Source: Micrococcales bacterium (GTDB taxonomy: Bacteria > Actinomycetota > Actinomycetes > Actinomycetales > WQXJ01). From it: a stretch of 64,000 nt of DNA. Below, one piece after another: positions 34,313 through 56,938 of this stretch (within the stretch, counting starts at the first letter, position 1; every line of letters starts with the position of its first letter). The translations under genes and the position numbers were made by a program. The notes beneath the pieces are model-generated. The model was given only the letters and a program-made list of their open reading frames with translations, ran no database searches and was not told the origin of the DNA. The stretch is taken from positions 3,193-67,192 of the forward strand of contig WQXJ01000004.1 of NCBI GenBank assembly GCA_009784895.1. The letters run 5' to 3'.

Positions 34313-34331
34313 TCGTTAGCAGGAGGCCACA

Positions 34332-34577
34332 ATGAGTACCGTTCAGCTTGCCACGAGGGTCGAAGAGTCTCAGGACCGGCTCTTTCGGGAAACCACCAAG
34401 CAGCTGGGAACAACCCCGGCAGACGCTATGCGTATGTTTGTGGCTGCTTTTAACCAGCACCGCGGCTTCCCTTTCGACGTGCGCCTCGACCGGAGTGTCG
34501 AGTTGCTCGAGACCGAGGAGGACGCCGTTGAATTCGCCTCCCATCTGTCTCGGAAGGTGCTCAATGAAGCGAGGTGA
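34332..34577 (+). CDS. RelB/DinJ family antitoxin
   Basis: VQLATRVEESQDRLFRETTKQLGTTPADAMRMFVAAFNQHRGFPFDVRL matches the RelB/DinJ ribbon-helix-helix pattern. Strong AGGAGG RBS. Confidence 0.8.
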   Translation: MSTVQLATRVEESQDRLFRETTKQLGTTPADAMRMFVAAFNQHRGFPFDVRLDRSVELLETEEDAVEFASHLSRKVLNEAR

Positions 34578-34914
34578 CATTTGGACCCTCCATGACGGGC
34601 GATACGCGTCAAAGGCCCGTCCAGTGGTCCTAGTGCAACACGACTTTGCGGGTTTCGACTCGGTGATCGTGTGCCTACTCACGTCGTTCAACCGAAGAGG
34701 GACACCGTCGCGCGTTTCGGTGGAACCCACTCCGACAAACGGACTGAACAAGACCAGCTACGTGATGGCAGACAAGTTACTCACCGTCAGTCAGGATGAG
34801 CTCGGCGACAGGGTCGGGAATCTGACCGACGAACAGGTGCATGAGGTGTCATGTTCGTTGGCAAGGGTGCTCGCCATTGGCCGGAGCCAAGCACAGCCCG
34901 ATCCGTCTGACTGA
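34564..34914 (+). CDS. PemK/MazF family toxin (endoribonuclease)
   Basis: MKRGDIWTLHDG...SKARPVVLVQHD...VIVCLLTS...NGLNKTSYVMADKLLTV. The ATG at 34564 overlaps the antitoxin 3' end by 14 nt. Confidence 0.8.
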   Translation: MKRGDIWTLHDGRYASKARPVVLVQHDFAGFDSVIVCLLTSFNRRGTPSRVSVEPTPTNGLNKTSYVMADKLLTVSQDELGDRVGNLTDEQVHEVSCSLARVLAIGRSQAQPDPSD

Positions 34915-34985
34915 TTCGACGATCAGTGTGAGCAAAGCACCCGGCCCGGCAGCCGGCATCGGGCAAGAAGCGCGCCGCCCGCGCC

Positions 34986-35723: not shown

Positions 35724-35837
35724 GATCTACAGTCAACCACCGAGCCCAGGCCTGGCACCACAAGCCAATTGCCTGGTGGGATCATCTGGGTGGCCACTTG
35801 GCCCGGCCAAGGCCTGAACTCGCGTCATCGGCACGGC

Positions 35838-38800
35838 TCAGACCGGCTGTTCGGTTTCGGTAACCAGGCCGTTTTCGACCGCCAGACGGCCCTCTCTGAG
35901 CGCGCCCTCCAATACGCCGTCCAGCCGCTGGCGCGCCTCGGAGTCCATCTGGACGCCAAAAGCACTGGCGGTCCTGGCAAAGGTTTCGTCACGCCCCTTA
36001 CCTGGGTCACGGCACACGGCCTCGATCATGGCATTACGCAGCTCGTGGTACGGGATTTCGTCGAGCTGCCGCCTGTCACCCGGCACGCGGAAACCGGCGT
36101 AGCTGGGAGGGTCAACGCCAGCTGGCCAGGCGATTGAGTCGCCGTTTTGAGCGGCGTGGAGTAGCCCCACCGGCAGGGACTTGCGAAGGGACTTGCGCTG
36201 TTCATCGGTCATTTGCCCGATGCCGAAGCGCGCCGCCACGATCCGTATCAGCCGGTCAGCCACGACTGGGCCTTCTTCGCTGACCACCGCGATGGCGACC
36301 TGGCCTACCGGGCTGACCTCCTTTTTGGAACGGCTGACCATGTCCTCTGGTCGGTGGCCGGCCTGCTCGGCGGCGGCCTTGAAGACTAGGGTGTCAGCGG
36401 TTCGCTCTGGGCCCTCTAAGGCCTGTGGCACAGCGGAGTCGTGGTCAATGGCCGGGGTGGCGGTCGGGGGTTGCGCTGGATCTTGCGAACTGGGCTCTGC
36501 CTCGGCCACCGGTGGCGGTCCAAAGTCAGCCGGCATCGGCTGCAGAACCTCGGTCTCATGCGACGTGCCGGGGGCATGCGGAAGCTCGGTCTCGCGAGAA
36601 AGGGGCAGATCAGCTGGGGATGGCGGTGACACCTCGGCGTCATGCGAAAGCTCGGACTCGCGAGAAAGGGGCAGGTCAGTTGAGGGTTGATGCGGAAGCT
36701 CGGTCTCGCGGGAAACAGGCAGATCAGTTGGGGATTGCTGCGAAAGCTCGGTCTCGCGGGAAACAGGCAGATCAGCTGGGGATGGCGGTGGCACCTCAAG
36801 GTCATGCGAAAGCTCGGACTCGCGGGAGATGGGCAGATCGGTTGGGGATGGCTGTGACACCTCGGGGTCATGCGGAAGCTCGGACTCGCGGGAAACAGGC
36901 AGATCAGCTGGGGGTTGCTGCGAAAGCTCGGACTCGCGGGAAACAGGCAGATCAGTTGGGGGTTGCTGCGAAACCTCGGACTCGCGGGAAACAGGCAGAT
37001 CAGTTGGAGGTTGCTGCGAAACCTCGGACTCGCGGGAAACAGGCAGATCAGTTGGGGGTTGCTGCAGAACCTCGGACTCGGGGGGTAGGTCAAACCCAGC
37101 CGGCACCGGCTGCAGAACCTCGGTCTCGCGGGAAAGGGGCAGGTCAGTTGAGGGTTGATGCGGAAGCTCGGTCTCGCGGGAAAGGGGCAGATCAGTTGGG
37201 GGTGGCTGTGGAACTTCAGACTCGGGTAGTGGCTCAAAGTCAGCCGACATCGGCTGCGGAAGCTCGGACTCGCGGGAAACAGGCAAATCAGTCGGGGATG
37301 GCGGTGGCACCTCGGGGTCATGCGAAAGCTCGGACTCGCGGGAAATGGGTGGGGTCGGGTCGGGGTTGGTTAGTCTGACAATTGCCTCGACCTCGCTTTG
37401 CGGTGACTTCAGCCAGGCAGGCAGCCAAATCCGGTGGACCGCCAACCAATCGAGTTGCCCAGCCAAGATCCAAGCTGGCAGCCCGTCGCGATCGCCCACA
37501 CTGGGCCGCCTGGCCCAATTGGGCCCATCAAGCATGACCGCCACCCAAGACGGCGACCCCTCGCGCCTGACCGCCAAGTCGACCCGGAAGCTCGACAGCC
37601 CATAGTTTTCGACCACCTCTAGGCCAGCCGCCCTCAACGCCGCCGCCACCTGGTCCTGGTGCAAATCCTGAGGTGCTTTATCCGCCCCTACCAGCCAGCG
37701 CTGGCCGTGTTCGGCCGCCAGGAGGTAGTCCTTAAGGTGGGCCAGGCCCAGCGAACTCGAACCCGACAAGTCCCAACCAGTGGGGTCGAACGAGGTCAAA
37801 ACCACCACCTGGCGGCGAGCCCTGGTCACCGCTACGTTCAGCCACCTCTCGCCGTCCACCCGGGTCAGCAGACCCCAATTGGACGGCGCCCGTCCCTCGC
37901 CATCTGGCGCCACCGCCAAGGTCATAATGATGACGTCGCGCTCATCGCCTTGGACACTGTCCAGGTTCTTGACAAACAACGGCGCGTCGGTCCGGCTCAG
38001 GGCCGAATCAAGCCGGGCATCAGACACGCGTACCTCGTCCAGCAAATCCAGAATCAGATCGCGCTGCTGATCGCTGAACGCCACCACTCCAAAGGTCCAC
38101 TGAGGATGCGACGCCAGTTGATCGCGCAGCTCGTGCACCACGCCGTAGGCCTCAGACCGGTTGACACCACCCACCCCGGTAACGTCGTTTTCCCAAGTGC
38201 CAGTGACCCGCCGCAACACGACTCCGCGCGGCGCACCGGCATCGGCCGGAGGGCTGGGGAACGTCGCCAAACGCCCGCCGTAGTACTGGGTGTTGGAGAA
38301 GGCCAACAACGACTCATCGAGTGATCGATAGTGCCAGGTCAGGTCGAGCTTTGGCCAACCCAGCCGGGCCGCCTCGACCAGAATCGAGTCCTCGGCGGCC
38401 GGAACCAAGCTAGCCTCCTCCCGGCCAGAACTGGCCGGATCTGAGGCGTTCTGTTCAGCCGAAACTGAGCCAATTGAGGCCGGCGCTTGCTTCGAGTCCC
38501 CAACCACCACCACGGCCTGGCCACGCCCGGCGGCGCCAATCGCTTCCGGCACCCGGATCTGGGAAGCCTCGTCGAAGACGACCACGTCAAAGCCCTCAAG
38601 ATCGCCGGGCAAGTAGCGAGCCACCGAGGCCGGGCTCATCAAGAAACAGGGCACCAGCTTGCGCACCTCCTGTCCGCCAACCTCTAACAGTTGACGGAAG
38701 GTGAGCCCCCCTCGCCGCCGAGCCAGCTGAGAGAACAACTCGCCGATCTGGGCGAACGAAACATCGCCGTCAAAGTTGCGGGCCGCCACGATTCGGGCCG

Positions 38801-41800
38801 GCAGCTCAGTACAGAGACGTTGGCGCAGATCAGCCGCCTGGGTGATGAACCGATCAACCCGCCCCTGATAGGCCACTGGATCGAAGCCTCGCAAACCGGT
38901 GCCATCCAACCGCTCAACTAGGGTGGCTTGAGCGATCGCCGCCTGGATCATTTCGTCTAGCTGGCCGCCATCGACGGCGCCTTGGTCGAGAACTTGGTCG
39001 GCCCCTTGCACACCCAGTTGAGCCAGACGGTCCAATTCGCGGCGAACCCGAAGGAAGGCCGCCAGCCGCGGCGCGCCTTTCTCCAGATCGGCCTGCCAGT
39101 CATCAAGCCTGTTTACAATCTGATCGAGAAGCGATTGGTTGCCTCGCCACTGCTCCAGCCGCTCCGGCGTGACATCTAGAAGCCTGAACAACTCCCGCAG
39201 GACCTCAGCCGTCCGTTTGACGTCTCGAGCCGACCAACCCCGGGCCCTGTGCCCGGCTTGGTCCCTCACTTGCTCGGCCGCCTGGTCGAAGGTCGCCTGA
39301 TCGATCAACCCGTTGCCTCGAAGCAACCAACCTGCCCGCACAGCTCTTTCTGCCAGCCAGAGCGACTGTTCGACCTGCGAATAGTCGGCCTCGACATAAG
39401 GGTTCCAGCGTTTGGGCAGGTCGATGCCAGGAAGGGCAGCCAGGGCCGCCTCGACATCAAGTACGGCCAATTCGGCCCGCTCAGCGCCTTGCAGTATCTC
39501 CGTCAATTGCTTCAGCGGCACGTTTTCGGCATCACGCCAATAGCCCTCGAGCTCGGTCACAATCTCCCGGCGCATCCTGGCCTTGCCAATTCGGCTGGAA
39601 TCAGCCCGGTGGGCCAGCCCAATCACCGCACCCCATTCGAAACCAATCACTTCAGGGTCAAACCACTCCAGCAAGGGTTTGTACTCGATACGCAGACGCC
39701 TCAATCGTTTCGTCGCCACTTCAGCCGTGCGCAGCCATTCTTCGGCCCCGATGCCCTCAACTTGGCGCGGTGTTAACGCGTCTTTGGCCCCAATTGTGTC
39801 CAGCCACTGGGCCAAGGCGTCCAACCCGGCTGGGTCACGCGCAGCACAGGCTAGTTGCCAAACCGGCCCTTCAAGACCGGACGCCACCTCCCCTAAAGCC
39901 TCAACTGCCTGCGCCAGGCTCTTCAGGTCAAGCCCAGGCTGTGCCGCTCGCCGCTCCAGGCCGGCATCGGCCGGTTTTGTGTCAACTTGGCCGGCCACGG
40001 ACAGATTCGCGCCAACCAGCCGCCAAGGCGAATCTGCCACCAAACCGCCCATTTGGCCTAGGTCTTGGGCCAACCGGCCTCCCGCCTCGACCACCGCCGC
40101 CAACCGCTGATCCTGCCGCAGAACCTCAGGCCCCACCGTCAAGACCGGGTCTGGGCCACGCGTTTCGACCACGGCCGCAGCCCCCAGAAGATCCTGGTGG
40201 GCCTGCCAAACCGACTTGCCCATGGGGCCCGGGCTGTGCAGCCGCTGCGGGTACTGCGACAAATGCGCCACCTCTTCGCGCTGAGCCGCTAGGGCAACGT
40301 CCCAGCCAGGTGAAGTGCCCGGAGTGAATTCGATGGCTCGGCGCAGTTGGTCTATGACGGCCGCCACGGTCTGGTGCCGGCCATACAGGTCCAGGCAGAA
40401 CGGCGCCAACCCAACCGAGTCCAGGCGCCGTTTGACCACGTCCAAGGCAGTTTGCTTCTGAGCCACAAAAAGGACCGATTTGCCCGTCACCAGGCAATGC
40501 GCAATCAGGTTGGTGATGGTCTGAGATTTGCCTGTCCCCGGCGGGCCTTCTAGGACAAATGAATGGCCACCGGCAGCCCAACGAACGGCCTGGGCCTGGC
40601 CTGAATCGGCTGCCAAAGGTAGGTAGCTGGCAAACTCGCCGGCCTCTGGCAGGGAGGGTGTGGCGGGAGTCGCCATCCCGGTCTGGTTGGCTCCCAGAGC
40701 TAGGCCGTGAACAGGCTCACGCTGGCTCAAATGAGACCAGTTCATGGACAAGTCGTGCCAAATATCCATGGTGTGGGTCTGAAGGCAAATCAGGTAGGCC
40801 ACTGGCTCGACCCGGAAACAGTCGAACCTGGAGCCGGCGATGGCCCGGCCCGTCGCCTCCAGGATCTGTTCAACTTCGAGACTGCCTTCGTCACCGGTTA
40901 GCTGAGCCAGCGCTGGGATTTCCAGGCCCCAAACTGTCCGCAGTTTCTCAGCCAGGCAGAGGTTAGGGACAGCCCGGCGCGCCGGATCCAACACCATTTC
41001 GAAGTGCTGGCCACTGCGTGACTCGGTCAAATCAACCGGCACCAGACAAAGCGGCGCGTCGCCGCGTCCCTGGCGGTCCGCTTCCATCCATTGCAGCGCA
41101 CCAAGGGCCAAGTAGAGGCTGGCCTGGCTGGTCTCTTCCATGGCCAGGCGCGAGCGCCGGTCAAGGCTCCTCAGCCTGGCCGCGAAAGCGCCTTTTGACA
41201 CAGTGGCATAAGCCACGCCAGAGACCTCCAGAGCGTCAATTAGGCCCCCTCCGTCCGCCATTTGGGACCCTTCGCCGCCTCCTGGCCTGCTGGCCTGGGC
41301 TAACGAGTCCTTTGGCAATAGCTTGACCGGGCGCCCGGCGGCGACCACGGACCCCAAACGGCCCAGGCCGGCGGCAGGTAGATGCAGCGGCACCGTCAAG
41401 CCGGATCTGCGTTTGGTCAGCGGATTGCAGTCTGACGAATCGACTAGCGCCCGCTGCCAGGCCTGCACCCGGCTGGGGATCGCGGCATCGGGCGCAATAC
41501 TGGCTGATGCCGGTGGCTTCGCTGGGGCAGGTGGCGGCGACGGCGGCACCGGGGCAGGTGGCGGCGACGGCGGCACCGGGGCAGGTGGCGGCGACGGCGG
41601 CACCTGGGCAGGCGGCCCGGACGGCTTAGAGGTTTGGTCTGGCGGCAGCGGCCGGCGGGCCTGACGCGGCTGCGGCGACCGGCGCGGCTGCGGTGGCCGG
41701 CGAGGCTGACGCCGCTGGGCCGGCCGATCTGACTCGGTTGACTGCGGTGGCCGGGTTAGCTCGGGCTTTTGGACTGGCGGCGCAGTTGGCTGGGCTGGCT

Positions 41801-43829
41801 CGGGTGGCGCGGTTGGCGCAGGTTCCGGCGGCGACGGCCTCGCTTGTGGTGCCGGATGCGGCTGTGGCGGGTGGACCGGGCCGTCTTTGGCCACGCGGCC
41901 ACGAAGACCCGCGCCTGGCGGCAACCCGGCGACAGCCTGGCCCAGCTGGCCCACGATTGGCAGAGGTTTGACCACCCCGTGGGCGGCATGGACATCAACC
42001 AGGTAGGTGATCTGGTCCTGACCGGATTGGAGATGCTTGGCGGCAATCGTGCTGGCCTGCTCAAAGGTCAGCGCCTGGAAGCGCAAACACAAGGCGGTGG
42101 CCTCGACCCCAACCAAACGTCTCGACGCCGCCACCGAGGCCAGCGTTCTCTTGTCTTCGACGGCCACCACCGGCAGTTGGGCATCCTCAGTCAGAAAGCC
42201 GGCGAAGGCGTGGTCCGCCGTGACGGCGATGACTGGGTGGATGCCAGCCCGCTCCAAAGCTGCGGTGTAAATGCAGGTCAAATCCAGGCAAGTGCCCCGC
42301 CTGTCATGCAGAACTTCCCAGTGGGTGCGAATGCGCTGGCCAGAGCCCTCGAATGTCCCGGCCGGATCAGACAGCAGCAGACGGCGGCTGGCCAAAGCGT
42401 CGTAGATGGCAGCGGCAATCGCCATGACCCTTTCGGGGCCCGACTCATAACCATTCAGGCTGGCCGAACCAGTCTTCTGCTCGAGGCGCTGGCTGGCCGC
42501 CCTGAGCACTGCGTCAATGGCCGGGTCCTCGGGGCGGACAAAAGCAGCAATGGCCTCTGGCACGGACATAGCCCACCACTCGTTGGCGGCCAGTAGCCGG
42601 ATCACGCCCGATCCCCAGGCCTTGGCCTCACCGGCGTCCAGTCCTAGGCGGATTGTCGTCATGACGGCCTCATTCAGCCCGCCAAATACGGCCGGATCAA
42701 CCGAAATCACCCGCCTGGTGGCGGGCAACTCCAACAATTCCCCCGGCCCCAACGGTCCAACCTGGATGTCAACCTGGGCAGTGACTTCATCAGTTCTTGG
42801 GCCCGGCGCATCAATCACAACTGATAACGTCACCGGCTTGGTCCTGGTATCGGTGGTGTTGACCACGGCCACAGTGGTCAGCGGCGTGGCCCGGTTGGAA
42901 GCGAGGGCCAAGTTGAAAGCGTCACGATAGGCCAGATAAGCCACCACGCCGTTCGACTGGGTTGTGCAGGATCGGATACCGGGACCAAGTTCACGCTCGG
43001 CGAATGGTGCCAGCCCCCTAGCCGTCACTGAGCCCGGACCGGAACCAACAGCCGCACCGGCGTCGACGCCCACGGCACCTCCGCCAGGAGTCGGGCCCAA
43101 AGCGGCTCTGGAGCCCTCAACCGGTTTTCGGCCCGGTGCCGCGCCTGGCTGGTGGTCTGGGCGTTCTTTGGCTGTCGAATCCGCCTTTGGGTCTGGCCGG
43201 CGCCTTGGGCCCAGGGAGCCTTTCTGGTCCGCCGGCTCGGCGACAGTGACAACTACCGGGATCTCTTGGGTGCCAAAATCGGTCAGAGTCGGCTGGTAGG
43301 GAAGCGATTGATGCCCATCACCGGCGTCTAGCAAGCCGATCAAGAAGCCCACCTCTTGGTCCAAGTTGAGCGCCTGGGCCAGCTGGGCCATAGTGTCCAA
43401 AGCGCGGTCGGCCTGCCGGCGGGTGATGGAATCTGGCCGGGAGACTCGGCCGGCTTGGCGGACAATCTCCCCCACCATGGCTCGGTACTCCTGGCCAAAG
43501 GCCGGCATGACCCTGGTGTGGGCTTCGATTGCCTGCAGCAACTGCTCTAGGTTCTGGGCCGAGCCGACGCTGGGCTCTTGGCCTGGTTGCGGGTCTGGCC
43601 TGGGCGTTGGTTTTGGCCTTGGCTGCTCGGGCCAGGTTCCGGGCAAGATCTGACTGTTCTGTCCCCACAAGGGGTCCTGCGCAGATGACGGCAAGGCCGC
43701 CTCGACCATGGATCTGAGGGCTGTTTCGAGCGCGCTAAGGCCCATGGCCAACCGCTCGGCGTCGCTCTGGTTGGTCGTCATTGCCCTATTGAACCTGTCC
43801 AATCTTGCGGCTCGAAGCCACTGGCCCAT
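35838..43829 (-). CDS. Giant (2,663-aa) multidomain helicase. Modules in order are a transglutaminase-like N-module, a Pro-rich linker, a DUF4011-like region, an Upf1-like SF1 helicase (AAA_11/AAA_12), a DUF559/Vsr-like nuclease fold, a tandem-repeat tract and a DUF3320-like C-terminus.
   Basis: Uninterrupted ORF. Transglutaminase-like motifs RGTCLDL...DHAFAGF, with the Cys codon at 42288-42290. DUF4011-like motifs RVQAWQRALVDSS and LYLALGALQW..APLCLVPV. Helicase motifs are Walker A GPPGTGKSQT (40518-40547), FDEASQ (~38560-38580), WHYRSLDESLLAFSN, VQGDERDVII and VAVTRARRQV. Nuclease-fold motifs SSFRVDLAV...VAVMLDG...DRD...HRIW (~37400-37650). C-terminal EEGPVVADRLIRIVAARFG...IAWPAGVD. Confidence 0.85.
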   Translation of the reverse strand: MGQWLRAARLDRFNRAMTTNQSDAERLAMGLSALETALRSMVEAALPSSAQDPLWGQNSQILPGTWPEQPRPKPTPRPDPQPGQEPSVGSAQNLEQLLQAIEAHTRVMPAFGQEYRAMVGEIVRQAGRVSRPDSITRRQADRALDTMAQLAQALNLDQEVGFLIGLLDAGDGHQSLPYQPTLTDFGTQEIPVVVTVAEPADQKGSLGPRRRPDPKADSTAKERPDHQPGAAPGRKPVEGSRAALGPTPGGGAVGVDAGAAVGSGPGSVTARGLAPFAERELGPGIRSCTTQSNGVVAYLAYRDAFNLALASNRATPLTTVAVVNTTDTRTKPVTLSVVIDAPGPRTDEVTAQVDIQVGPLGPGELLELPATRRVISVDPAVFGGLNEAVMTTIRLGLDAGEAKAWGSGVIRLLAANEWWAMSVPEAIAAFVRPEDPAIDAVLRAASQRLEQKTGSASLNGYESGPERVMAIAAAIYDALASRRLLLSDPAGTFEGSGQRIRTHWEVLHDRRGTCLDLTCIYTAALERAGIHPVIAVTADHAFAGFLTEDAQLPVVAVEDKRTLASVAASRRLVGVEATALCLRFQALTFEQASTIAAKHLQSGQDQITYLVDVHAAHGVVKPLPIVGQLGQAVAGLPPGAGLRGRVAKDGPVHPPQPHPAPQARPSPPEPAPTAPPEPAQPTAPPVQKPELTRPPQSTESDRPAQRRQPRRPPQPRRSPQPRQARRPLPPDQTSKPSGPPAQVPPSPPPAPVPPSPPPAPVPPSPPPAPAKPPASASIAPDAAIPSRVQAWQRALVDSSDCNPLTKRRSGLTVPLHLPAAGLGRLGSVVAAGRPVKLLPKDSLAQASRPGGGEGSQMADGGGLIDALEVSGVAYATVSKGAFAARLRSLDRRSRLAMEETSQASLYLALGALQWMEADRQGRGDAPLCLVPVDLTESRSGQHFEMVLDPARRAVPNLCLAEKLRTVWGLEIPALAQLTGDEGSLEVEQILEATGRAIAGSRFDCFRVEPVAYLICLQTHTMDIWHDLSMNWSHLSQREPVHGLALGANQTGMATPATPSLPEAGEFASYLPLAADSGQAQAVRWAAGGHSFVLEGPPGTGKSQTITNLIAHCLVTGKSVLFVAQKQTALDVVKRRLDSVGLAPFCLDLYGRHQTVAAVIDQLRRAIEFTPGTSPGWDVALAAQREEVAHLSQYPQRLHSPGPMGKSVWQAHQDLLGAAAVVETRGPDPVLTVGPEVLRQDQRLAAVVEAGGRLAQDLGQMGGLVADSPWRLVGANLSVAGQVDTKPADAGLERRAAQPGLDLKSLAQAVEALGEVASGLEGPVWQLACAARDPAGLDALAQWLDTIGAKDALTPRQVEGIGAEEWLRTAEVATKRLRRLRIEYKPLLEWFDPEVIGFEWGAVIGLAHRADSSRIGKARMRREIVTELEGYWRDAENVPLKQLTEILQGAERAELAVLDVEAALAALPGIDLPKRWNPYVEADYSQVEQSLWLAERAVRAGWLLRGNGLIDQATFDQAAEQVRDQAGHRARGWSARDVKRTAEVLRELFRLLDVTPERLEQWRGNQSLLDQIVNRLDDWQADLEKGAPRLAAFLRVRRELDRLAQLGVQGADQVLDQGAVDGGQLDEMIQAAIAQATLVERLDGTGLRGFDPVAYQGRVDRFITQAADLRQRLCTELPARIVAARNFDGDVSFAQIGELFSQLARRRGGLTFRQLLEVGGQEVRKLVPCFLMSPASVARYLPGDLEGFDVVVFDEASQIRVPEAIGAAGRGQAVVVVGDSKQAPASIGSVSAEQNASDPASSGREEASLVPAAEDSILVEAARLGWPKLDLTWHYRSLDESLLAFSNTQYYGGRLATFPSPPADAGAPRGVVLRRVTGTWENDVTGVGGVNRSEAYGVVHELRDQLASHPQWTFGVVAFSDQQRDLILDLLDEVRVSDARLDSALSRTDAPLFVKNLDSVQGDERDVIIMTLAVAPDGEGRAPSNWGLLTRVDGERWLNVAVTRARRQVVVLTSFDPTGWDLSGSSSLGLAHLKDYLLAAEHGQRWLVGADKAPQDLHQDQVAAALRAAGLEVVENYGLSSFRVDLAVRREGSPSWVAVMLDGPNWARRPSVGDRDGLPAWILAGQLDWLAVHRIWLPAWLKSPQSEVEAIVRLTNPDPTPPISRESELSHDPEVPPPSPTDLPVSRESELPQPMSADFEPLPESEVPQPPPTDLPLSRETELPHQPSTDLPLSRETEVLQPVPAGFDLPPESEVLQQPPTDLPVSRESEVSQQPPTDLPVSRESEVSQQPPTDLPVSRESELSQQPPADLPVSRESELPHDPEVSQPSPTDLPISRESELSHDLEVPPPSPADLPVSRETELSQQSPTDLPVSRETELPHQPSTDLPLSRESELSHDAEVSPPSPADLPLSRETELPHAPGTSHETEVLQPMPADFGPPPVAEAEPSSQDPAQPPTATPAIDHDSAVPQALEGPERTADTLVFKAAAEQAGHRPEDMVSRSKKEVSPVGQVAIAVVSEEGPVVADRLIRIVAARFGIGQMTDEQRKSLRKSLPVGLLHAAQNGDSIAWPAGVDPPSYAGFRVPGDRRQLDEIPYHELRNAMIEAVCRDPGKGRDETFARTASAFGVQMDSEARQRLDGVLEGALREGRLAVENGLVTETEQPV
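36540..37350 (-). repeat. In-frame 48-bp tandem-repeat tract inside the giant helicase gene, encoding PTDLP(V/L)SRE(S/T)E(L/V)(S/P)QQP-type 16-aa units with 22-aa variants
   Basis: There are 13 clear DLPxSRE(S/T)E units plus about 3 degenerate ones. Four near-identical consecutive 48-bp units occupy 36879-37070 (ctcggactcgcgggaaacaggcagatcagttgggggttgctgcgaaac). Confidence 0.9.
41524..41604 (-). repeat. Perfect 3 x 27-bp tandem repeat encoding (PPSPPPAPV)x3 within the Pro-rich linker of the giant gene
   Basis: ggggcaggtggcggcgacggcggcacc repeated three times without mismatch (41524-41550, 41551-41577, 41578-41604). Confidence 0.9.
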
Positions 43830-43852
43830 CGTAATCTCAGGTGGGCCATCTA

Positions 43853-43870
43853 GGTGGCGAATTGGCCACC
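43853..43870. promoter_or_regulatory. Inverted repeat in the divergent intergenic region upstream of the giant gene; candidate operator
   Basis: GGTGGC-gaattg-GCCACC lies 24 nt upstream of the ATG at 43829. A related half-site GGTGGGCC sits at 43840-43847. TGGCCCA (43822-43828) and TGGGCCA (43842-43848) also form an inverted pair around the start codon. Confidence 0.2.
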
Positions 43871-44074
43871 GGCGAGCCGCCTATCCCCCATTCCAAGGTG
43901 GCCGGGCCTGGGTTGCAGCTCAAGTCTGCGGCGACCCGGGCGTGGCTCGGCTTGCCGACATTGCGGCTGGTAAGGGCGCATTTGCCCGATGGCGTCGCTT
44001 GTCACTGCCGTTAATCTAAGGCAGCATTACCTTGTTACGGGGAAGGTCATGATCACACAGCTATTCACCGCCAA

Positions 44075-45274
44075 TTGGCAAATCTGGCTCGAAAACGATC
44101 ACCAGGGCGCGCTTCGCTTAGGCCGGGTTCTGCCCGCGCGGTCGTTGGGACAACTGACGTGACCCACCACCCCGGACCGTCCGTTAGTGCGGCTGTCCTG
44201 CTGCTGACCGAGCGCCTTGAGCCGCTAATACGCCGCAGGCTAGAACCGATGCTGGGCTCTGCGCCGTGGACTGATGCCCTGGTGGAGCTCGACCGGGTCA
44301 GGGGCTGTGAGCCGGTCACATTTGAAGCCAATGACCCGAAAGCCCAGCTGCGGCTGGTAACCGAACGGCTAGGCCAGCTGGGGTACCCGTTCGAACCCGA
44401 CGATGGCCACGGGTCGGTAACCAATTCGGGCCTGGCCCTTCGAGTGACGGTTTGCCGTTTGGCTCAAGGCAGCCAGTTCACCGCACCCGAGGCTTGGCGG
44501 GCCTACGACCTGGTCCGCCAACTGCTCGACGCACTGGGCGATAGTGAAGGTGCCGTCGCGGCCTCGACCGGCCAGGCTGCCTTGGTCGAGTTGGCCAGCG
44601 AACAAGAGGGTCTGACCTTGGATGAGATCCGGGGGCCGGAACTAGTGAACCTGCCGGCCAAACCTCGGTCGAAAAGAAAGGAGCCAGACCAGCCCGTTGT
44701 GCCGGCATCGGAAGTCTGGGATCTCCCGTTTGACAGCCTCAAGCGGCTGATTGGCCGCCGCCGCCCTGCGTTCGAACCGTGGGTGGCGGTACCCGTTGGT
44801 CAACCAGATCAGCTTTCCCGAACCGACCAGCCAGCCGTCAGAGACCAAATTAGGGCTCTGGCCCTGGAAATCGCCAAGTTCGAAGGCCCCATTCACGTCC
44901 ACCGGTTGGCCACCCTGATCGCTCACTCGTTCGGTGTGCCCCGCCTGTTCCCAAAGCGCTCGGTCGATATCACCGACCAGATCCTCCTGACCCAGGGCCT
45001 CGAGGTTGACGTAGACGACTTCATCTGGCCATTTGCCGTCGACCGGGTGGGCTGGCGCCAGTTCAGGCCCAATGATTCAACCGTCGACCGCCCGGCCTGG
45101 GCCATCAGCCCGGTTGAGATCGCCAATGCGGCCGAGTTTTGGCTGGAGCGATCGGTTGGAGGCAGCGACCTGGAAGGGACTATTCTGCGAACCTTTGGCC
45201 AACACCGAGCCAGTCGAGACAACCGCAGGCACATCCGCTTGAGCATCCAAGACCTGGCCCTGGCCCACGCCTGA
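44075..45274 (+). CDS. DUF3320-like domain protein with an N-terminal helical domain resembling a degenerate Swt1-like HEPN; divergent partner of the giant helicase
   Basis: The C-terminal half (ALEIAKFEGPIHVHRLATLIAHSFGVPRL...DFIWPFAVDRVGWRQFRP...ILRTFGQHRASRDNRRHI) aligns by eye with the giant protein's C-terminus (VSEEGPVVADRLIRIVAARFGIGQM...DSIAWPAGVDPPSYAGFRVP...TFARTASAFGVQMDSEARQRL). The ORF opens at TTG 44075. GTG 44159 is a likelier start. Confidence 0.65.
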   Translation: MANLARKRSPGRASLRPGSARAVVGTTDVTHHPGPSVSAAVLLLTERLEPLIRRRLEPMLGSAPWTDALVELDRVRGCEPVTFEANDPKAQLRLVTERLGQLGYPFEPDDGHGSVTNSGLALRVTVCRLAQGSQFTAPEAWRAYDLVRQLLDALGDSEGAVAASTGQAALVELASEQEGLTLDEIRGPELVNLPAKPRSKRKEPDQPVVPASEVWDLPFDSLKRLIGRRRPAFEPWVAVPVGQPDQLSRTDQPAVRDQIRALALEIAKFEGPIHVHRLATLIAHSFGVPRLFPKRSVDITDQILLTQGLEVDVDDFIWPFAVDRVGWRQFRPNDSTVDRPAWAISPVEIANAAEFWLERSVGGSDLEGTILRTFGQHRASRDNRRHIRLSIQDLALAHA

Positions 45275-47023: not shown

Positions 47024-47290
47024 TCATCGGTTTCGGTTGTAAATGTCGCGGCGGTGGCCCACCGCGATCACTAGTACCACCAGAATGTCGTTTTCGATCT
47101 GATAGATGACCCTGTAGTCGCCGGTGCGCACGCGCCAGGCGCCTTTGACACCGGCCAGTTTGATCGCGCCGGGCGGGCGGGGCGCGGTGGCTAAAAGATC
47201 AATCGCCACCTGGACATGCCGACGAGCGGCTAGGTCGAGCTTGGCCAACTGTCGCTGAGCCCGACCGGTCAGCTTGACCCGGTAGTTCAT
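47024..47290 (-). CDS. relE: RelE/ParE family toxin
   Basis: 88 aa. MNYRVKLTGRAQRQLAKLD...AWRVRTGDYRVIYQIENDILVVLVIAVGHRRDIY is the classic RelE/ParE pattern. It overlaps the antitoxin stop by 4 nt. Confidence 0.85.
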   Translation of the reverse strand: MNYRVKLTGRAQRQLAKLDLAARRHVQVAIDLLATAPRPPGAIKLAGVKGAWRVRTGDYRVIYQIENDILVVLVIAVGHRRDIYNRNR

Positions 47291-47550
47291 TCCAGACCTA
47301 GATCAGCCTTGACCTGCTCCCATGGCACCGGATCCTCCCCGGCAGCCATTTCCTTGCGGGCGGCCTTGACCTGCTCCAGGTCCGCTTGGTCCTCCGCCGC
47401 CGCGATCAGGCGGTCTAAATCCGACGCGTCAATTACGGCCGCCACCCGGCGCCCTCGCCGGGTCAAGTAAACCGGCTCATGGTCCACCCGGGCAGCGTCA
47501 ACCACATCAGCCAGCCTGGCCCGGGCGGCCGTTACCGTCATCTCGCTCAC
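47287..47550 (-). CDS. yefM: Phd/YefM family antitoxin
   Basis: MTVTAARARLADVVDAARVDHEPVYLTRRGRRVAAVIDASDLDRL. Start is either GTG 47550 or ATG 47541. Confidence 0.85.
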   Translation of the reverse strand: MSEMTVTAARARLADVVDAARVDHEPVYLTRRGRRVAAVIDASDLDRLIAAAEDQADLEQVKAARKEMAAGEDPVPWEQVKADLGLE

Positions 47551-47557
47551 GCCCGCG

Positions 47558-47597
47558 AGTATAGCGCTGAAGCCGCGGTTTTGTACAGAACAGTACT
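47558..47597 (-). promoter_or_regulatory. Candidate yefM-relE promoter/operator: TATACT -10-like box plus two GTAC-core palindromes
   Basis: On the minus strand, TATACT (47563-47558) lies upstream of the start codon. TGTACA (47582-47587) sits 18 nt further upstream at the -35 position. AGTACT (47592-47597) is centred 10 bp from it. YefM-type operators in E. coli are recalled to use TGTACA cores. Confidence 0.35.
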
Positions 47598-47653
47598 TGC
47601 CCGATGTCGCGTGCCCGGCTCAGCCGGTCTCTCCCCCGGGTGTTGCGGGCGTA
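47594..47653 (+). repeat. 60-bp palindromic dispersed element, copy A (identical to copy B)
   Basis: tacttgcccgatgtcgcgtgcccggctcagccggtctctcccccgggtgttgcgggcgta. It folds as an imperfect hairpin (TAC/GTA, GCCCG/CGGGC, CCCGG/CCGGG arms). Confidence 0.85.
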
Positions 47654-56857: not shown

Positions 56858-56878
56858 GCCAAGAAAGGCTCGACAACA

Positions 56879-56938
56879 TACTTGCCCGATGTCGCGTGCC
56901 CGGCTCAGCCGGTCTCTCCCCCGGGTGTTGCGGGCGTA
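56879..56938 (+). repeat. 60-bp palindromic dispersed element, copy B (identical to copy A)
   Basis: 60/60 identity with 47594-47653. It starts 22 nt after the SDR stop and contains the last 10 codons and the stop codon of the convergent lacI-family gene. Confidence 0.85.

What the first reader, a model, noticed from the sequence alone, without database searches (positions are those of the whole stretch)
44049..45274. Divergent partner gene carries a second DUF3320-like domain, has an ambiguous start, and has a possible GTGA-coupled 37-codon upstream ORF
Seen directly: the C-terminal ~170 aa of this ORF align block-by-block with the C-terminus of the giant protein. The matching blocks are EGP(I/V)..(H/D)RL...FG, then (F/S)IWP...VD, then a (T/A)FG...R..R block. 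The two divergently transcribed genes therefore share one domain.

The N-terminal half (LLLTERLEPLIRRRLEPMLGSAPW...DPKAQLRLV...RVTVCRLAQGSQFTAPEAWRAYDLVRQLLDALG) looks like a Swt1-type HEPN helical domain. The position where I expect R-N-x-x-A-H reads CRLAQG, so it is probably not a nuclease.

The ORF only opens with TTG 44075 and an Arg-rich, unlikely N-terminus. A well-placed ATG at 44049 (after ggggaagg) opens a different-frame 37-codon ORF, MITQLFTANWQIWLENDHQGALRLGRVLPARSLGQLT. Its TGA (44160-44162) overlaps a GTG at 44159 in the main frame (GTGA). That indicates either translational coupling or a frameshift (error, decay or programmed) in a single gene.

Inference: a shared DUF3320 suggests hetero-oligomerisation or regulation of the helicase by the small protein.
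Basis: partly seen in the sequence, partly recalled or inferred. Interest (0 to 1): 0.65.

Follow-up and report, generated by a model that had tools for sequence, protein, structure and literature searches.

The report
Catalytically dead HEPN–DUF3320 defence-island protein
The gene is a real but inactivated member of an uncharacterised actinobacterial family whose proteins look like the two ends of giant anti-phage helicases with the middle missing; the small upstream reading frame and the pairing with the neighbouring giant are not conserved elsewhere.

Summary
The partner shares its C-terminal ~170 aa with the giant's C-terminus (hhalign 99.9%, E 1.6e-33). Its N-terminal half is a Swt1-type HEPN domain.

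The gene starts at GTG 44159 (371 aa). That position aligns with the Met of the homologues examined.

The HEPN Arg and His, invariant in all 64 relatives, read V-C-R-L-A-Q here. This copy cannot be a canonical HEPN RNase.

New findings:
- The small family matches both ends of Hhe/ProA-type giants, so it is an "ends-only" version.
- It is normally the last gene of operons with a type IIG methyltransferase and an HKD-SNF2 helicase. Its start overlaps the upstream stop in 27 of 53 genome loci.
- The window's GTGA is that inherited Met-Thr start context.

The 37/57-codon upstream ORF has no homologue among 1.84 billion proteins. The frameshift idea is rejected.

The giant–partner pairing is not conserved. 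Three giant orthologue loci lack a partner, and none of about 140 partner loci has an adjacent giant. The giant's own HEPN motif is also degenerate.

Best reading: an orphaned, non-catalytic pseudo-HEPN and winged-helix protein in a defence island. Interest is moderate.

The parts
44159..45274 (+). Partner gene, best model: 371 aa, GTG start, stop included
   Evidence: GTG 44159 aligns with the Met of the homologues examined (V-THHPGPSV against M-TFDARHSV). It is the only in-frame start codon between TTG 44075 and ATG 44249. ATG 44249, the public gene caller's choice (P0001, 341 aa), would remove the confidently modelled helix 1.
44171..44608 (+). Swt1/Abi2-type HEPN domain (aa 5-150, all helical)
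   Evidence: Pfam HEPN_Swt1 E 0.0024. The family carries PF18731. hhalign to the giant N-termini gives 99.5%. The AF2 model shows helices 5-32, 38-47, 60-68, 86-102, 109-125 and 129-150, with mean pLDDT 91.8.
44450..44467 (+). Degenerate HEPN catalytic motif V-C-R-L-A-Q in place of R-N-R-W-A-H
   Evidence: All 64 other family members keep the Arg and the His. The window is the only exception.
44771..45271 (+). C-terminal DUF3320 module (aa 205-371), shared with the giant; probable winged-helix plus helical subdomain
   Evidence: hhalign 99.9%, E 1.6e-33 to the giant-family C-termini. PDC-S37 profile E 9e-9. NCBIfam ProA profile positions 1752-1903, E 1e-13. AF2 domain model pLDDT 87.7 with H-H-H-strand-strand topology. 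Foldseek returns only non-significant hits, mostly winged-helix domains.
44840..44956 (+). Pfam DUF3320 core (aa 228-266)
   Evidence: PF11784 scores 25.9 bits against a cut-off of 25.
44049..44162 (+). 37-codon upstream ORF (57 codons if read from ATG 43989); not conserved
   Evidence: An exhaustive phmmer search of 1.84 billion representatives finds only the ORF itself. It shows no similarity to the C-termini of relatives' upstream genes. Its codon score lies in the top 10% of the window's 443 small ORFs. 34% of stop-to-stop frames in the window are at least 37 codons long. The SD-like duplex energy is -6.4 kcal/mol.
44159..44162 (+). GTGA start/stop overlap
   Evidence: Read directly from the sequence. 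NTGA occurs at the start in 32 of 53 genome relatives.
43830..44158 (.). Divergent intergenic region between the giant and the partner (377 bp if the giant starts at M17, ATG 43779-43781)
   Evidence: No sigma-70-like promoter or terminator was found and no Rfam match. GCCAATTGGC-like palindromes lie at 43857-43866 and 44070-44079.
35838..43829 (-). Giant Hhe/ProA/PDC-S37-type protein: HEPN-like, transglutaminase-like, DUF4011, SF1 helicase, Vsr-type REase (MTES_1575), repeats, DUF3320
   Evidence: Pfam. PADLOC PDC-S37 E 2e-203 and Hhe 1e-97. NCBIfam ProA 1294 bits and Hhe 453 bits, both below their cut-offs. Orthologues of about 2150-2200 aa at no more than 43% identity.
43368..43730 (-). Giant's N-terminal Swt1-type HEPN-like domain (aa 34-154)
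   Evidence: Pfam E 0.03. Aligned with 14 orthologues. hhalign 99.5% to the small family.
43437..43454 (-). Giant's degenerate HEPN motif A-G-R-V-S-R in place of x-N-R-A-A-H
   Evidence: 51 of 58 orthologues with this domain keep both the Asn and the His. The window giant has lost both.
35877..36389 (-). Giant's C-terminal DUF3320 module (aa 2481-2651)
   Evidence: hhalign. Pfam DUF3320 19.4 bits.

Best explanation
Shown:
- Positions 44159-45274 encode a 371-aa protein of a conserved actinobacterial family. The family combines an N-terminal Swt1-type HEPN domain with a C-terminal DUF3320 module.
- Both modules are homologous to the two ends of Hhe/ProA/MTES_1575-type giant helicase-nucleases. 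The small family is therefore an "ends-only" version of those giants.
- In relatives the gene is usually the last gene of restriction-modification-like defence operons: a type IIG methyltransferase plus an HKD(PLD)-SNF2 helicase. Less often it sits in Hma, dnd-related or DISARM contexts. Its start codon overlaps the upstream gene's stop.
- The window copy sits alone, next to an Hhe/ProA-like giant, with toxin-antitoxin pairs nearby. It has lost the invariant Arg and His, and the Asn, of the HEPN site. It still keeps 63 of 78 strongly conserved family positions and folds confidently in silico.

Inferred:
- In relatives the protein supplies, in trans, the HEPN RNase and nucleic-acid-binding functions that the giants carry in cis.
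- The window copy no longer cleaves RNA. It persists as a non-catalytic nucleic-acid-binding or scaffolding pseudo-HEPN protein.
- Translation starts at GTG 44159.
- The GTGA is the inherited Met-Thr NTGACC start context. The 37-codon ORF is a lineage-specific open frame that happens to end at that TGA. It is neither a conserved gene nor a frameshifted N-terminus.
For: - Family and start: 65 homologues at E down to 1e-77 with 95-99% coverage. Their Met aligns to GTG 44159.
- Ends-only relationship: P0018 aligns to both ends of the L097 giant. The N-terminal match is 39% identical (E 2e-18) and the C-terminal match is 36% identical (E 1e-26). hhalign gives 99.5% for the N-termini and 99.9% for the C-termini.
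- Contexts.
- Start-stop overlap: 27 of 53 genome loci overlap a long upstream gene, and 32 of 53 start with NTGA.
- Motif loss: the window is the only one of 65 family members without the Arg and His. It keeps 63 of 78 conserved columns. Its mismatches include R98V, H103Q, R85G, R121Q, R139Q and R348Q.
- Intact gene: normal coding composition, GC by codon position 0.72/0.47/0.72. AF2 mean pLDDT 91.8, pTM 0.90.
- Upstream ORF: no homologue. Seven other orphan genome copies show the same pattern of a short open +1 frame ending at NTGA.
- Literature: the HEPN-transglutaminase-SF1 helicase-Vsr REase-wHTH giant architecture, and the overlap of its wHTH with DUF3320, are described in PMC3710099.
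Against: - No close orthologue of the window copy exists; the best hit is 42% identical. Selection on this copy therefore cannot be measured, and the upstream ORF cannot be tested by conservation at short evolutionary distance.
- The upstream ORF has a gene-like codon pattern (0.3% of open mononucleotide shuffles score as high). It also has a better Shine-Dalgarno match than GTG 44159 (-6.4 against -3.9 kcal/mol). Real coupling is therefore possible.
- The giant next door has also lost its HEPN Asn and His, as have only about 9-12% of its relatives. This coincidence hints at a functional link that the "orphan" reading does not explain.
- The winged-helix assignment rests on the 2013 paper and on non-significant Foldseek hits.
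- No experiment exists for any member of the small family.
Confidence: 0.6

Rival explanations
1. The partner is a dedicated regulatory or structural subunit of the neighbouring giant. Its dead HEPN domain, its DUF3320 module, or both, would pair with the giant's corresponding domains. HEPN domains normally act as dimers. The partner would then modulate the helicase-nuclease, for example as an adaptor, an inhibitor or a DNA-targeting factor.
For: - Both domains are homologous between the two proteins.
- The genes are divergent neighbours sharing one 330-377 bp control region.
- Both HEPN motifs are degenerate in this locus. That state is seen in 0 of 64 other small proteins and in about 9-12% of giants.
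- Another lineage (L097/L099) also keeps a partner and a giant in one island.
- In Dietzia (L001/L007) and L046 the partner is likewise divergent from a helicase gene.
Against: - The pairing is not conserved. Three of three giant orthologue loci lack a partner.
- None of about 140 partner loci has an adjacent giant.
- The usual neighbours of the family contain no DUF3320.
- The partner's HEPN belongs to the small-family/RNKWAH subtype, not to the subtype of the window's giant. The two N-termini give no pairwise BLAST hit.
- No complex prediction could be run.
Confidence: 0.2
2. The partner is a decaying remnant. It would be a former subunit of a methyltransferase/SNF2 defence operon, left behind after that operon was lost, no longer under selection, and on its way to becoming a pseudogene.
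For: - The gene has lost its usual operon. No trace of the upstream genes remains in the window.
- It has lost the catalytic dyad and four further conserved arginines.
- It is a long branch: mean identity to the family is 37%, against 49% among the other members.
- GTG 44159 has only a weak Shine-Dalgarno match.
Against: - The 371-codon frame is intact, with normal codon-position GC.
- 63 of 78 strongly conserved positions are kept, the same as other divergent but motif-intact members.
- The AF2 model is confident.
- Drift to about 40% identity without a stop or frameshift is implausible without purifying selection.
Confidence: 0.15
3. The 37-codon ORF is translated, and termination at UGA 44160-44162 drives re-initiation at the overlapping GUG. 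This would be genuine translational coupling that sets partner expression.
For: - The GTGA overlap and an ATG preceded by GGGGAAGG, with duplex energy -6.4 kcal/mol.
- A gene-like codon score in the upstream ORF's frame.
- GTG 44159 has only an average Shine-Dalgarno score.
- The family's start is coupled to an upstream gene in half of the relatives, so it may depend on re-initiation.
Against: - The peptide has no homologue.
- 34% of frames in this 62.5% G+C window are open for at least 37 codons, and 10% of small ORFs score as well.
- The TGA is inherent to the conserved Met-Thr start.
- Seven other orphan genome copies have unrelated open frames ending at the same position.
- No promoter or transcription start site is known.
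Confidence: 0.15
4. Positions 44049-45274 form one gene interrupted by a frameshift near 44150-44160. The frameshift could be a sequencing error, decay, or programmed.
For: Only the adjacency of the two frames.
Against: - Homologues begin at the position of GTG 44159, with at most about 6-12 extra residues.
- The upstream peptide matches nothing.
- An independent ENA assembly of the same sequence is identical across this region.
Confidence: 0.02

Closest known systems
Uncharacterised actinobacterial HEPN_Swt1 + DUF3320 proteins. NCBI names them 'DUF3320 domain-containing protein' or 'Swt1 family HEPN domain-containing protein', e.g. in Dietzia natronolimnaea, Gordonia amarae and Kribbella rubisoli.
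   Same: Full-length homology at 30-42% identity and 95-99% coverage, with the same two-domain architecture, the same start position and the same Met-Thr NTGACC start context.
   Different: The window copy is the only one of 65 without the HEPN Arg and His. It is not in a methyltransferase/SNF2 operon. It sits divergently next to an Hhe/ProA-type giant.
Hhe / ProA / PADLOC PDC-S37 / MTES_1575-type giant proteins: HEPN, transglutaminase, DUF4011, SF1 helicase, Vsr REase and wHTH (Anantharaman et al. 2013, PMC3710099).
   Same: The partner's N-terminal HEPN and its C-terminal DUF3320 module are homologous to the two ends of these proteins. The neighbouring 2663-aa gene is such a giant.
   Different: The partner lacks the roughly 1800 central residues: transglutaminase, DUF4011, helicase and REase. 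The window's giant scores below the NCBIfam equivalog cut-offs (ProA 1294 against 1500; Hhe 453 against 2000). It also carries extra Pro-rich and PTDLPVSRESE repeat insertions.
HEPN accessory subunits of helicase-containing R-M-like systems, e.g. the Ava_2192/DUF499 HEPN-AAA+ protein of Hma-type systems, and DISARM-like operons of a type IIG methyltransferase with an HKD-SNF2 helicase.
   Same: The small family occupies the same niche. It is a Swt1/Abi2-type HEPN gene at the end of operons encoding a methyltransferase and an SNF2 helicase (PMC3710099).
   Different: [quoted passage not shown] The small gene is not modelled as a component of any PADLOC system; it hits only the C-terminus of PDC-S37.
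Catalytically inactive HEPN domains, e.g. eukaryotic Swt1 and some nematode HEPN expansions, proposed to act as RNA binders or sensors.
   Same: Loss of the Rx4-6H motif with the fold retained. Inactive Swt1-type HEPN domains are described in PMC3710099.
   Different: This is a bacterial protein with a different architecture. Binding or sensing activity is purely inferred.

Membership tests
HEPN superfamily, Swt1/Abi2-like (Pfam PF18731) | Profile match to the HEPN_Swt1 helical domain | tested here: met
   The window protein alone scores 18.6 bits (E 0.0024), below the cut-off of 27.5. Its full-length homologues carry PF18731. The family profile matches the giants' HEPN domains at 99.5%, E 2.7e-22. 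The AF2 model is all-helical.
HEPN superfamily, Swt1/Abi2-like (Pfam PF18731) | Conserved Rx4-6H catalytic motif (R-N-x-x-A-H in this family) | tested here: not met
   V-C-R-L-A-Q at aa 98-103. All 64 relatives keep the Arg and the His.
HEPN superfamily, Swt1/Abi2-like (Pfam PF18731) | Endoribonuclease activity | not testable with these tools
   This needs a biochemical assay. Activity is predicted to be absent because the motif is lost.
DUF3320 (Pfam PF11784) / C-terminal wHTH module of MTES_1575-type proteins | Profile match above the curated threshold | tested here: met
   25.9 bits against a cut-off of 25. The extended 173-column module matches at hhalign 99.9%, E 1.6e-33. PDC-S37 profile E 9e-9. 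ProA profile E 1e-13.
DUF3320 (Pfam PF11784) / C-terminal wHTH module of MTES_1575-type proteins | Winged helix-turn-helix fold | tested here: inconclusive
   The AF2 domain model has H-H-H-strand-strand topology. No Foldseek PDB hit has E below 0.4. The top local matches are winged-helix domains such as cullin WHB (probability 0.8-0.87), Roquin ROQ and GntR/MntR. The wHTH assignment comes from PMC3710099.
Small HEPN_Swt1-DUF3320 family of Actinobacteria | Full-length two-domain homology of about 360-390 aa | tested here: met
   E 1e-77 to P0002. 65 members at 29-42% identity with 95-99% coverage.
Small HEPN_Swt1-DUF3320 family of Actinobacteria | Operonic or adjacent association with a DNA methyltransferase and an SNF2/HKD helicase, with the start overlapping the upstream stop | tested here: not met
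   No such genes or remnants are present in the window. In relatives, 27 of 53 genome loci overlap a long upstream gene.
Hhe / ProA / PDC-S37 (the neighbouring giant) | Full-length profile match at equivalog level | tested here: inconclusive
   PADLOC PDC-S37 E 2e-203. NCBIfam ProA 1294 bits is below its 1500 cut-off, and Hhe 453 bits is below its 2000 cut-off. The giant is a clear relative but not an equivalog by NCBI's thresholds.
Translationally coupled upstream ORF | Stop codon of the upstream ORF overlapping the start codon of the main gene | tested here: met
   GTGA at 44159-44162.
Translationally coupled upstream ORF | Conservation of the upstream ORF in related loci, or homologues of its peptide | tested here: not met
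   Only a self-hit among 1.84 billion representatives. Relatives have either a large upstream gene or unrelated open frames.
Translationally coupled upstream ORF | Evidence that the upstream ORF is transcribed and translated | not testable with these tools
   This needs transcription start site mapping or Ribo-seq. The consensus scan found no promoter.

The most novel reading that the evidence does not exclude
The dead-HEPN ends-only protein and the giant form a co-evolved pair. Both HEPN active sites were lost together because the two HEPN domains assemble into one composite, now non-catalytic, interface. The small protein would then act as a trans-acting regulator or DNA-targeting adaptor of an Hhe/ProA-type helicase-nuclease. 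More generally, ends-only proteins would be portable HEPN+wHTH "sensor/effector caps" that can plug into different helicase-nuclease cores: an SF1 core in cis, or SNF2-HKD, Hma and dnd-related cores in trans.
Probability: 0.15. Interest if true: 0.6.

Novelty: new variant of a known kind. Interest (0 to 1): 0.35.

Why it matters
The small HEPN-DUF3320 family is widespread in actinobacterial defence islands, but it has no described function and is not a component of any curated defence-system model.

It matches both ends of Hhe/ProA-type giants, and it is usually the coupled last gene of methyltransferase/SNF2-HKD operons. Together these give a Rosetta-stone-type prediction: HEPN plus winged-helix modules work together with helicase-nuclease cores, either fused or in trans. 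That prediction can be tested with existing phage-defence assays.

The window's copy is a natural catalytic-site knockout sitting beside a giant whose HEPN site is also degenerate. It is a convenient case for asking what these modules do apart from RNA cleavage.

For annotation, the result fixes the start at GTG 44159 rather than the public call at ATG 44249. It also removes a spurious upstream ORF/frameshift hypothesis.

Tried and rejected
- Relic hypothesis. I tested whether the upstream ORF is the remnant C-terminus of the ancestral upstream SNF2/methyltransferase gene. tblastn of 24 upstream proteins against 43700-44300 and against the whole window found nothing better than chance. The idea is rejected as undetectable.
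- Close orthologues. A metagenome scan with window-specific peptides found none. A second scan with the family alignment returned 80 loci, none close. L128's 60% identity applies to one short segment of an ordinary SNF2-linked copy.
- Literature. No paper was found for NCBIfam's "anti-phage protein ProA". DUF3320 appears in one paper only.
- Regulatory signals. No promoter or terminator consensus and no Rfam family were found in the intergenic region.
- Flanks of the giant. I looked for long terminal repeats that would mark an insertion and found none.
- A conserved neighbour of giants. The DEDDh exonuclease near L074 and L076 is a generic exonuclease and is absent from the window.
- Complex prediction. 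AlphaFold-Multimer of the partner with the giant could not be run with the tools available.
Full report
**What is there**

The window carries a 2663-aa ORF on the minus strand (35838-43829) and, divergently, an ORF open from TTG 44075 to 45274.

Pfam reads the giant as follows:
- a weak HEPN_Swt1 match (aa 34-154);
- a transglutaminase-like trace;
- DUF4011;
- an AAA_11/AAA_12 SF1 helicase;
- an MTES_1575 Vsr-type endonuclease;
- a sub-threshold DUF3320 match.

PADLOC calls the giant PDC-S37 (E 2e-203) and Hhe (1e-97). NCBIfam matches it to "anti-phage protein ProA" (1294 bits, cut-off 1500) and to Hhe (453 bits, cut-off 2000). This architecture was described by Anantharaman et al. 2013 (PMC3710099). 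They assign the C-terminal region that overlaps DUF3320 to two winged helix-turn-helix domains.

**The shared domain is real**

- The partner scores 25.9 bits on DUF3320, against a cut-off of 25.
- Pairwise BLASTP against the giant is marginal, E 0.001.
- The PDC-S37 profile covers partner aa 221-366 at E 9e-9.
- The ProA profile covers aa 201-350 at E 1e-13.
- A profile-profile comparison of 18 small-family C-termini against 14 giant C-termini gives 99.9% probability, E 1.6e-33, over 173 columns.

**The N-terminal half is a Swt1-type HEPN domain**

The window protein alone gives E 0.0024. Its 65 full-length homologues nearly all carry PF18731. The small-family N-termini match the giants' N-termini at 99.5%, E 2.7e-22.

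**Gene model**

Homologues are 354-392 aa. In the homologues aligned, the initiator Met aligns with GTG 44159 or lies at most a few residues upstream: V-THHPGPSV against M-TFDARHSV.

The other candidate starts fail:
- No other start codon lies in frame between TTG 44075 and ATG 44249.
- The TTG extension has non-coding codon-position composition (GC3 0.46 against 0.72 in real genes). It has no Shine-Dalgarno match (+1.2 kcal/mol) and no counterpart in any homologue.
- ATG 44249 is the public gene caller's choice (P0001, 341 aa). It would delete helix 1, which is confidently modelled and contains near-invariant residues.

The gene is therefore 44159-45274, encoding 371 aa.

**The upstream ORF and the GTGA**

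The family's start context is NTGAC(C), Met-Thr. Of 53 distinct genome loci:
- 32 start with NTGA;
- 27 have a start that overlaps the stop of a gene of about 1150-1250 aa (13 as NTGA, 14 as TGATG);
- 7 further copies lack such a gene but still have an unrelated +1 frame, open for 30-299 codons, that ends at the same TGA.

The window's GTGACC is therefore inherited. Any open +1 frame upstream must end there.

In this 62.5% G+C window, 34% of stop-to-stop frames reach 37 codons. The 57-aa peptide has no homologue other than itself among 1.84 billion cluster representatives. It does not resemble the C-termini of relatives' upstream genes.

Three points argue in favour of a real upstream ORF:
- Its codon score (+0.16) is in the top 10% of 443 small ORFs and is exceeded by only 0.3% of open shuffles.
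- Its ATG has a better Shine-Dalgarno match than GTG 44159 (-6.4 against -3.9 kcal/mol; random mean -3.6).
- The family's start may be adapted to re-initiation.

I rate real coupling as possible but unsupported (0.15).

The frameshift reading is rejected. Homologues have no extension. An independent ENA assembly is identical across the region; its only difference is a single 27-bp gap elsewhere in the 21-kb alignment.

**What the family is**

A typical member (P0018, Kribbella) aligns to both ends of a giant (L097, 2126 aa). Residues 9-121 match giant 2-125 at 39% identity (E 2e-18). Residues 161-364 match giant 1911-2108 at 36% identity (E 1e-26). The small family is therefore an ends-only version of the giants of the R-N-K-W-A-H subtype. 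It lacks the roughly 1800 residues of transglutaminase, DUF4011, helicase and endonuclease.

Its genomic contexts across 66 genome and 80 metagenome loci are defence islands:
- Most often: type IIG methyltransferase, then HKD-SNF2 helicase, then partner. The reverse order of the first two genes, and partner followed by SNF2, also occur. PADLOC assigns the neighbours to REase_MTase_IIG/DrmMI and C3a139/DrmD.
- A class 1 DISARM-like cluster in Dietzia, where the partner is divergent.
- An Hma system.
- A dnd-related methyltransferase together with a PT-DNA endonuclease-like gene.
- UvrD with a PD-(D/E)XK nuclease, a Zeta-toxin-like gene, and GmrSD.

By the usual fusion logic, the small protein probably supplies in trans the HEPN and nucleic-acid-binding modules that the giants carry in cis. 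This is inference.

**What is unusual here**

1. Catalytic motif. All 64 other family members keep the Arg and His of L-R-I-V-R-N-R-W-A-H. The window has L-R-V-T-V-C-R-L-A-Q.
2. Overall conservation. The window keeps 63 of 78 positions that are at least 90% conserved, the same as other divergent but motif-intact members. Its mismatches include R98V, H103Q and four more conserved arginines. The frame is intact with normal codon composition. The AF2 model is confident: pLDDT 91.8, pTM 0.90. This pattern fits a pseudo-enzyme better than a pseudogene.
3. Pairing with the giant. The pairing is not conserved in either direction. Three giant orthologue loci lack a partner. No partner locus has an adjacent giant. 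L036, L097 and L099 have one within 10 kb, in variable islands.
4. The giant's own HEPN motif. It reads A-G-R-V-S-R, where 51 of 58 orthologues keep x-N-R-A-A-H. Its Walker A (GPPGTGKS) and DEAS box are present, as are a VAVTRAR motif and a transglutaminase-like GTCLD…DHAF pair.

The joint loss of both HEPN sites in one locus is the one observation that favours a functional link. With a single locus it remains a coincidence to be tested.

**Mechanism adopted**

This is an orphaned, non-catalytic HEPN plus winged-helix protein translated from GTG 44159 (confidence 0.6).

Rivals:
- a dedicated regulatory or structural partner of the giant (0.2);
- a decaying remnant (0.15);
- a genuinely coupled upstream ORF (0.15; this is compatible with the others);
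- a frameshifted single gene (0.02).

**Fold evidence for the C-terminal module**

The domain model (pLDDT 87.7) has helix-helix-helix-strand-strand topology followed by a three-helix subdomain. No Foldseek PDB match is significant. The best local matches are winged-helix domains: cullin WHB, Roquin ROQ, GntR, MntR, ZBP1 and AlkX/YcaQ. This is consistent with the 2013 assignment but does not prove it.

**Verdict**

- The domain assignments, the dead HEPN site and the GTG start are supported.
- The upstream ORF is not supported, and the frameshift reading is rejected.
- Hetero-oligomerisation is not supported by comparative data.

The gene belongs to a database-known but uncharacterised family. 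Its catalytic-site loss and its neighbour make it a new variant of that family. Interest is moderate.

Noticed in passing
window 44070-44079, 43857-43866, 35764-35773, 35793-35802: GCCAATTGGC is a perfect 10-bp palindrome inside the upstream ORF. One-mismatch copies occur once more in the same divergent intergenic region and twice just 3' of the giant's stop codon. The window holds 11 matches with at most one mismatch, against 4.2 expected; 0 of 100 shuffles reach 11. Four of the 11 flank the giant gene. These could be operator or insertion-site motifs. No longer similarity between the flanks was found.
   Followed up: partly
window about 36500-37400 (giant aa about 2155-2440) and giant aa about 640-780: The giant carries a run of about 290 aa of PTDLPVSRESE(L/V)-type repeats and a Pro-rich stretch of about 140 aa. 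Its orthologues are about 2150-2200 aa long. An independent ENA assembly of the same sequence differs from the window only by one 27-bp gap in the 21-kb alignment; the gap was not located.
   Followed up: partly
window 43779-43781: By alignment with orthologues, and by the public gene call (2638 aa in the ENA assembly), the giant more likely starts at Met17 (ATG 43779-43781) than at the first ATG, 43829.
   Followed up: partly
window about 34330-34915 and 47024-47550: Toxin-antitoxin pairs lie on either side of the locus. RelB/PemK lies left of the DUF554 gene. PhD/ParE lies right of the DUF1254/DUF1214 gene. This suggests a small defence or mobile island.
   Followed up: no
window about 47589-47653 and 56875-56938: A 65-bp stretch is repeated at 98% identity between these two places. 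It appeared as a secondary BLAST hit. Its nature is unknown.
   Followed up: no
L097 9971-19971 and L099 9971-21098: Two related metagenome contigs share the same left flank: a dnd-related methyltransferase followed by the partner. A giant lies 2.5 kb or about 10 kb downstream, with different cargo genes in between. The island between partner and giant is therefore variable.
   Followed up: partly
L005 9778-9948 (same in L006): The window partner's closest relative (P0002, 42% identity) also has a small called ORF (56 aa) between the SNF2-HKD gene and the partner. That ORF is unrelated in sequence to the window's upstream ORF and does not overlap the partner's start.
   Followed up: yes
giant orthologues P0115, P0124, P0128, P0136, P0165 (N-termini): About 9% of giants with an N-terminal HEPN domain have also lost the motif His. 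Most giants have Ser, Ala or Gly instead of Arg immediately before the Asn. Whether the giants' HEPN domains are generally active RNases is therefore unclear.
   Followed up: partly
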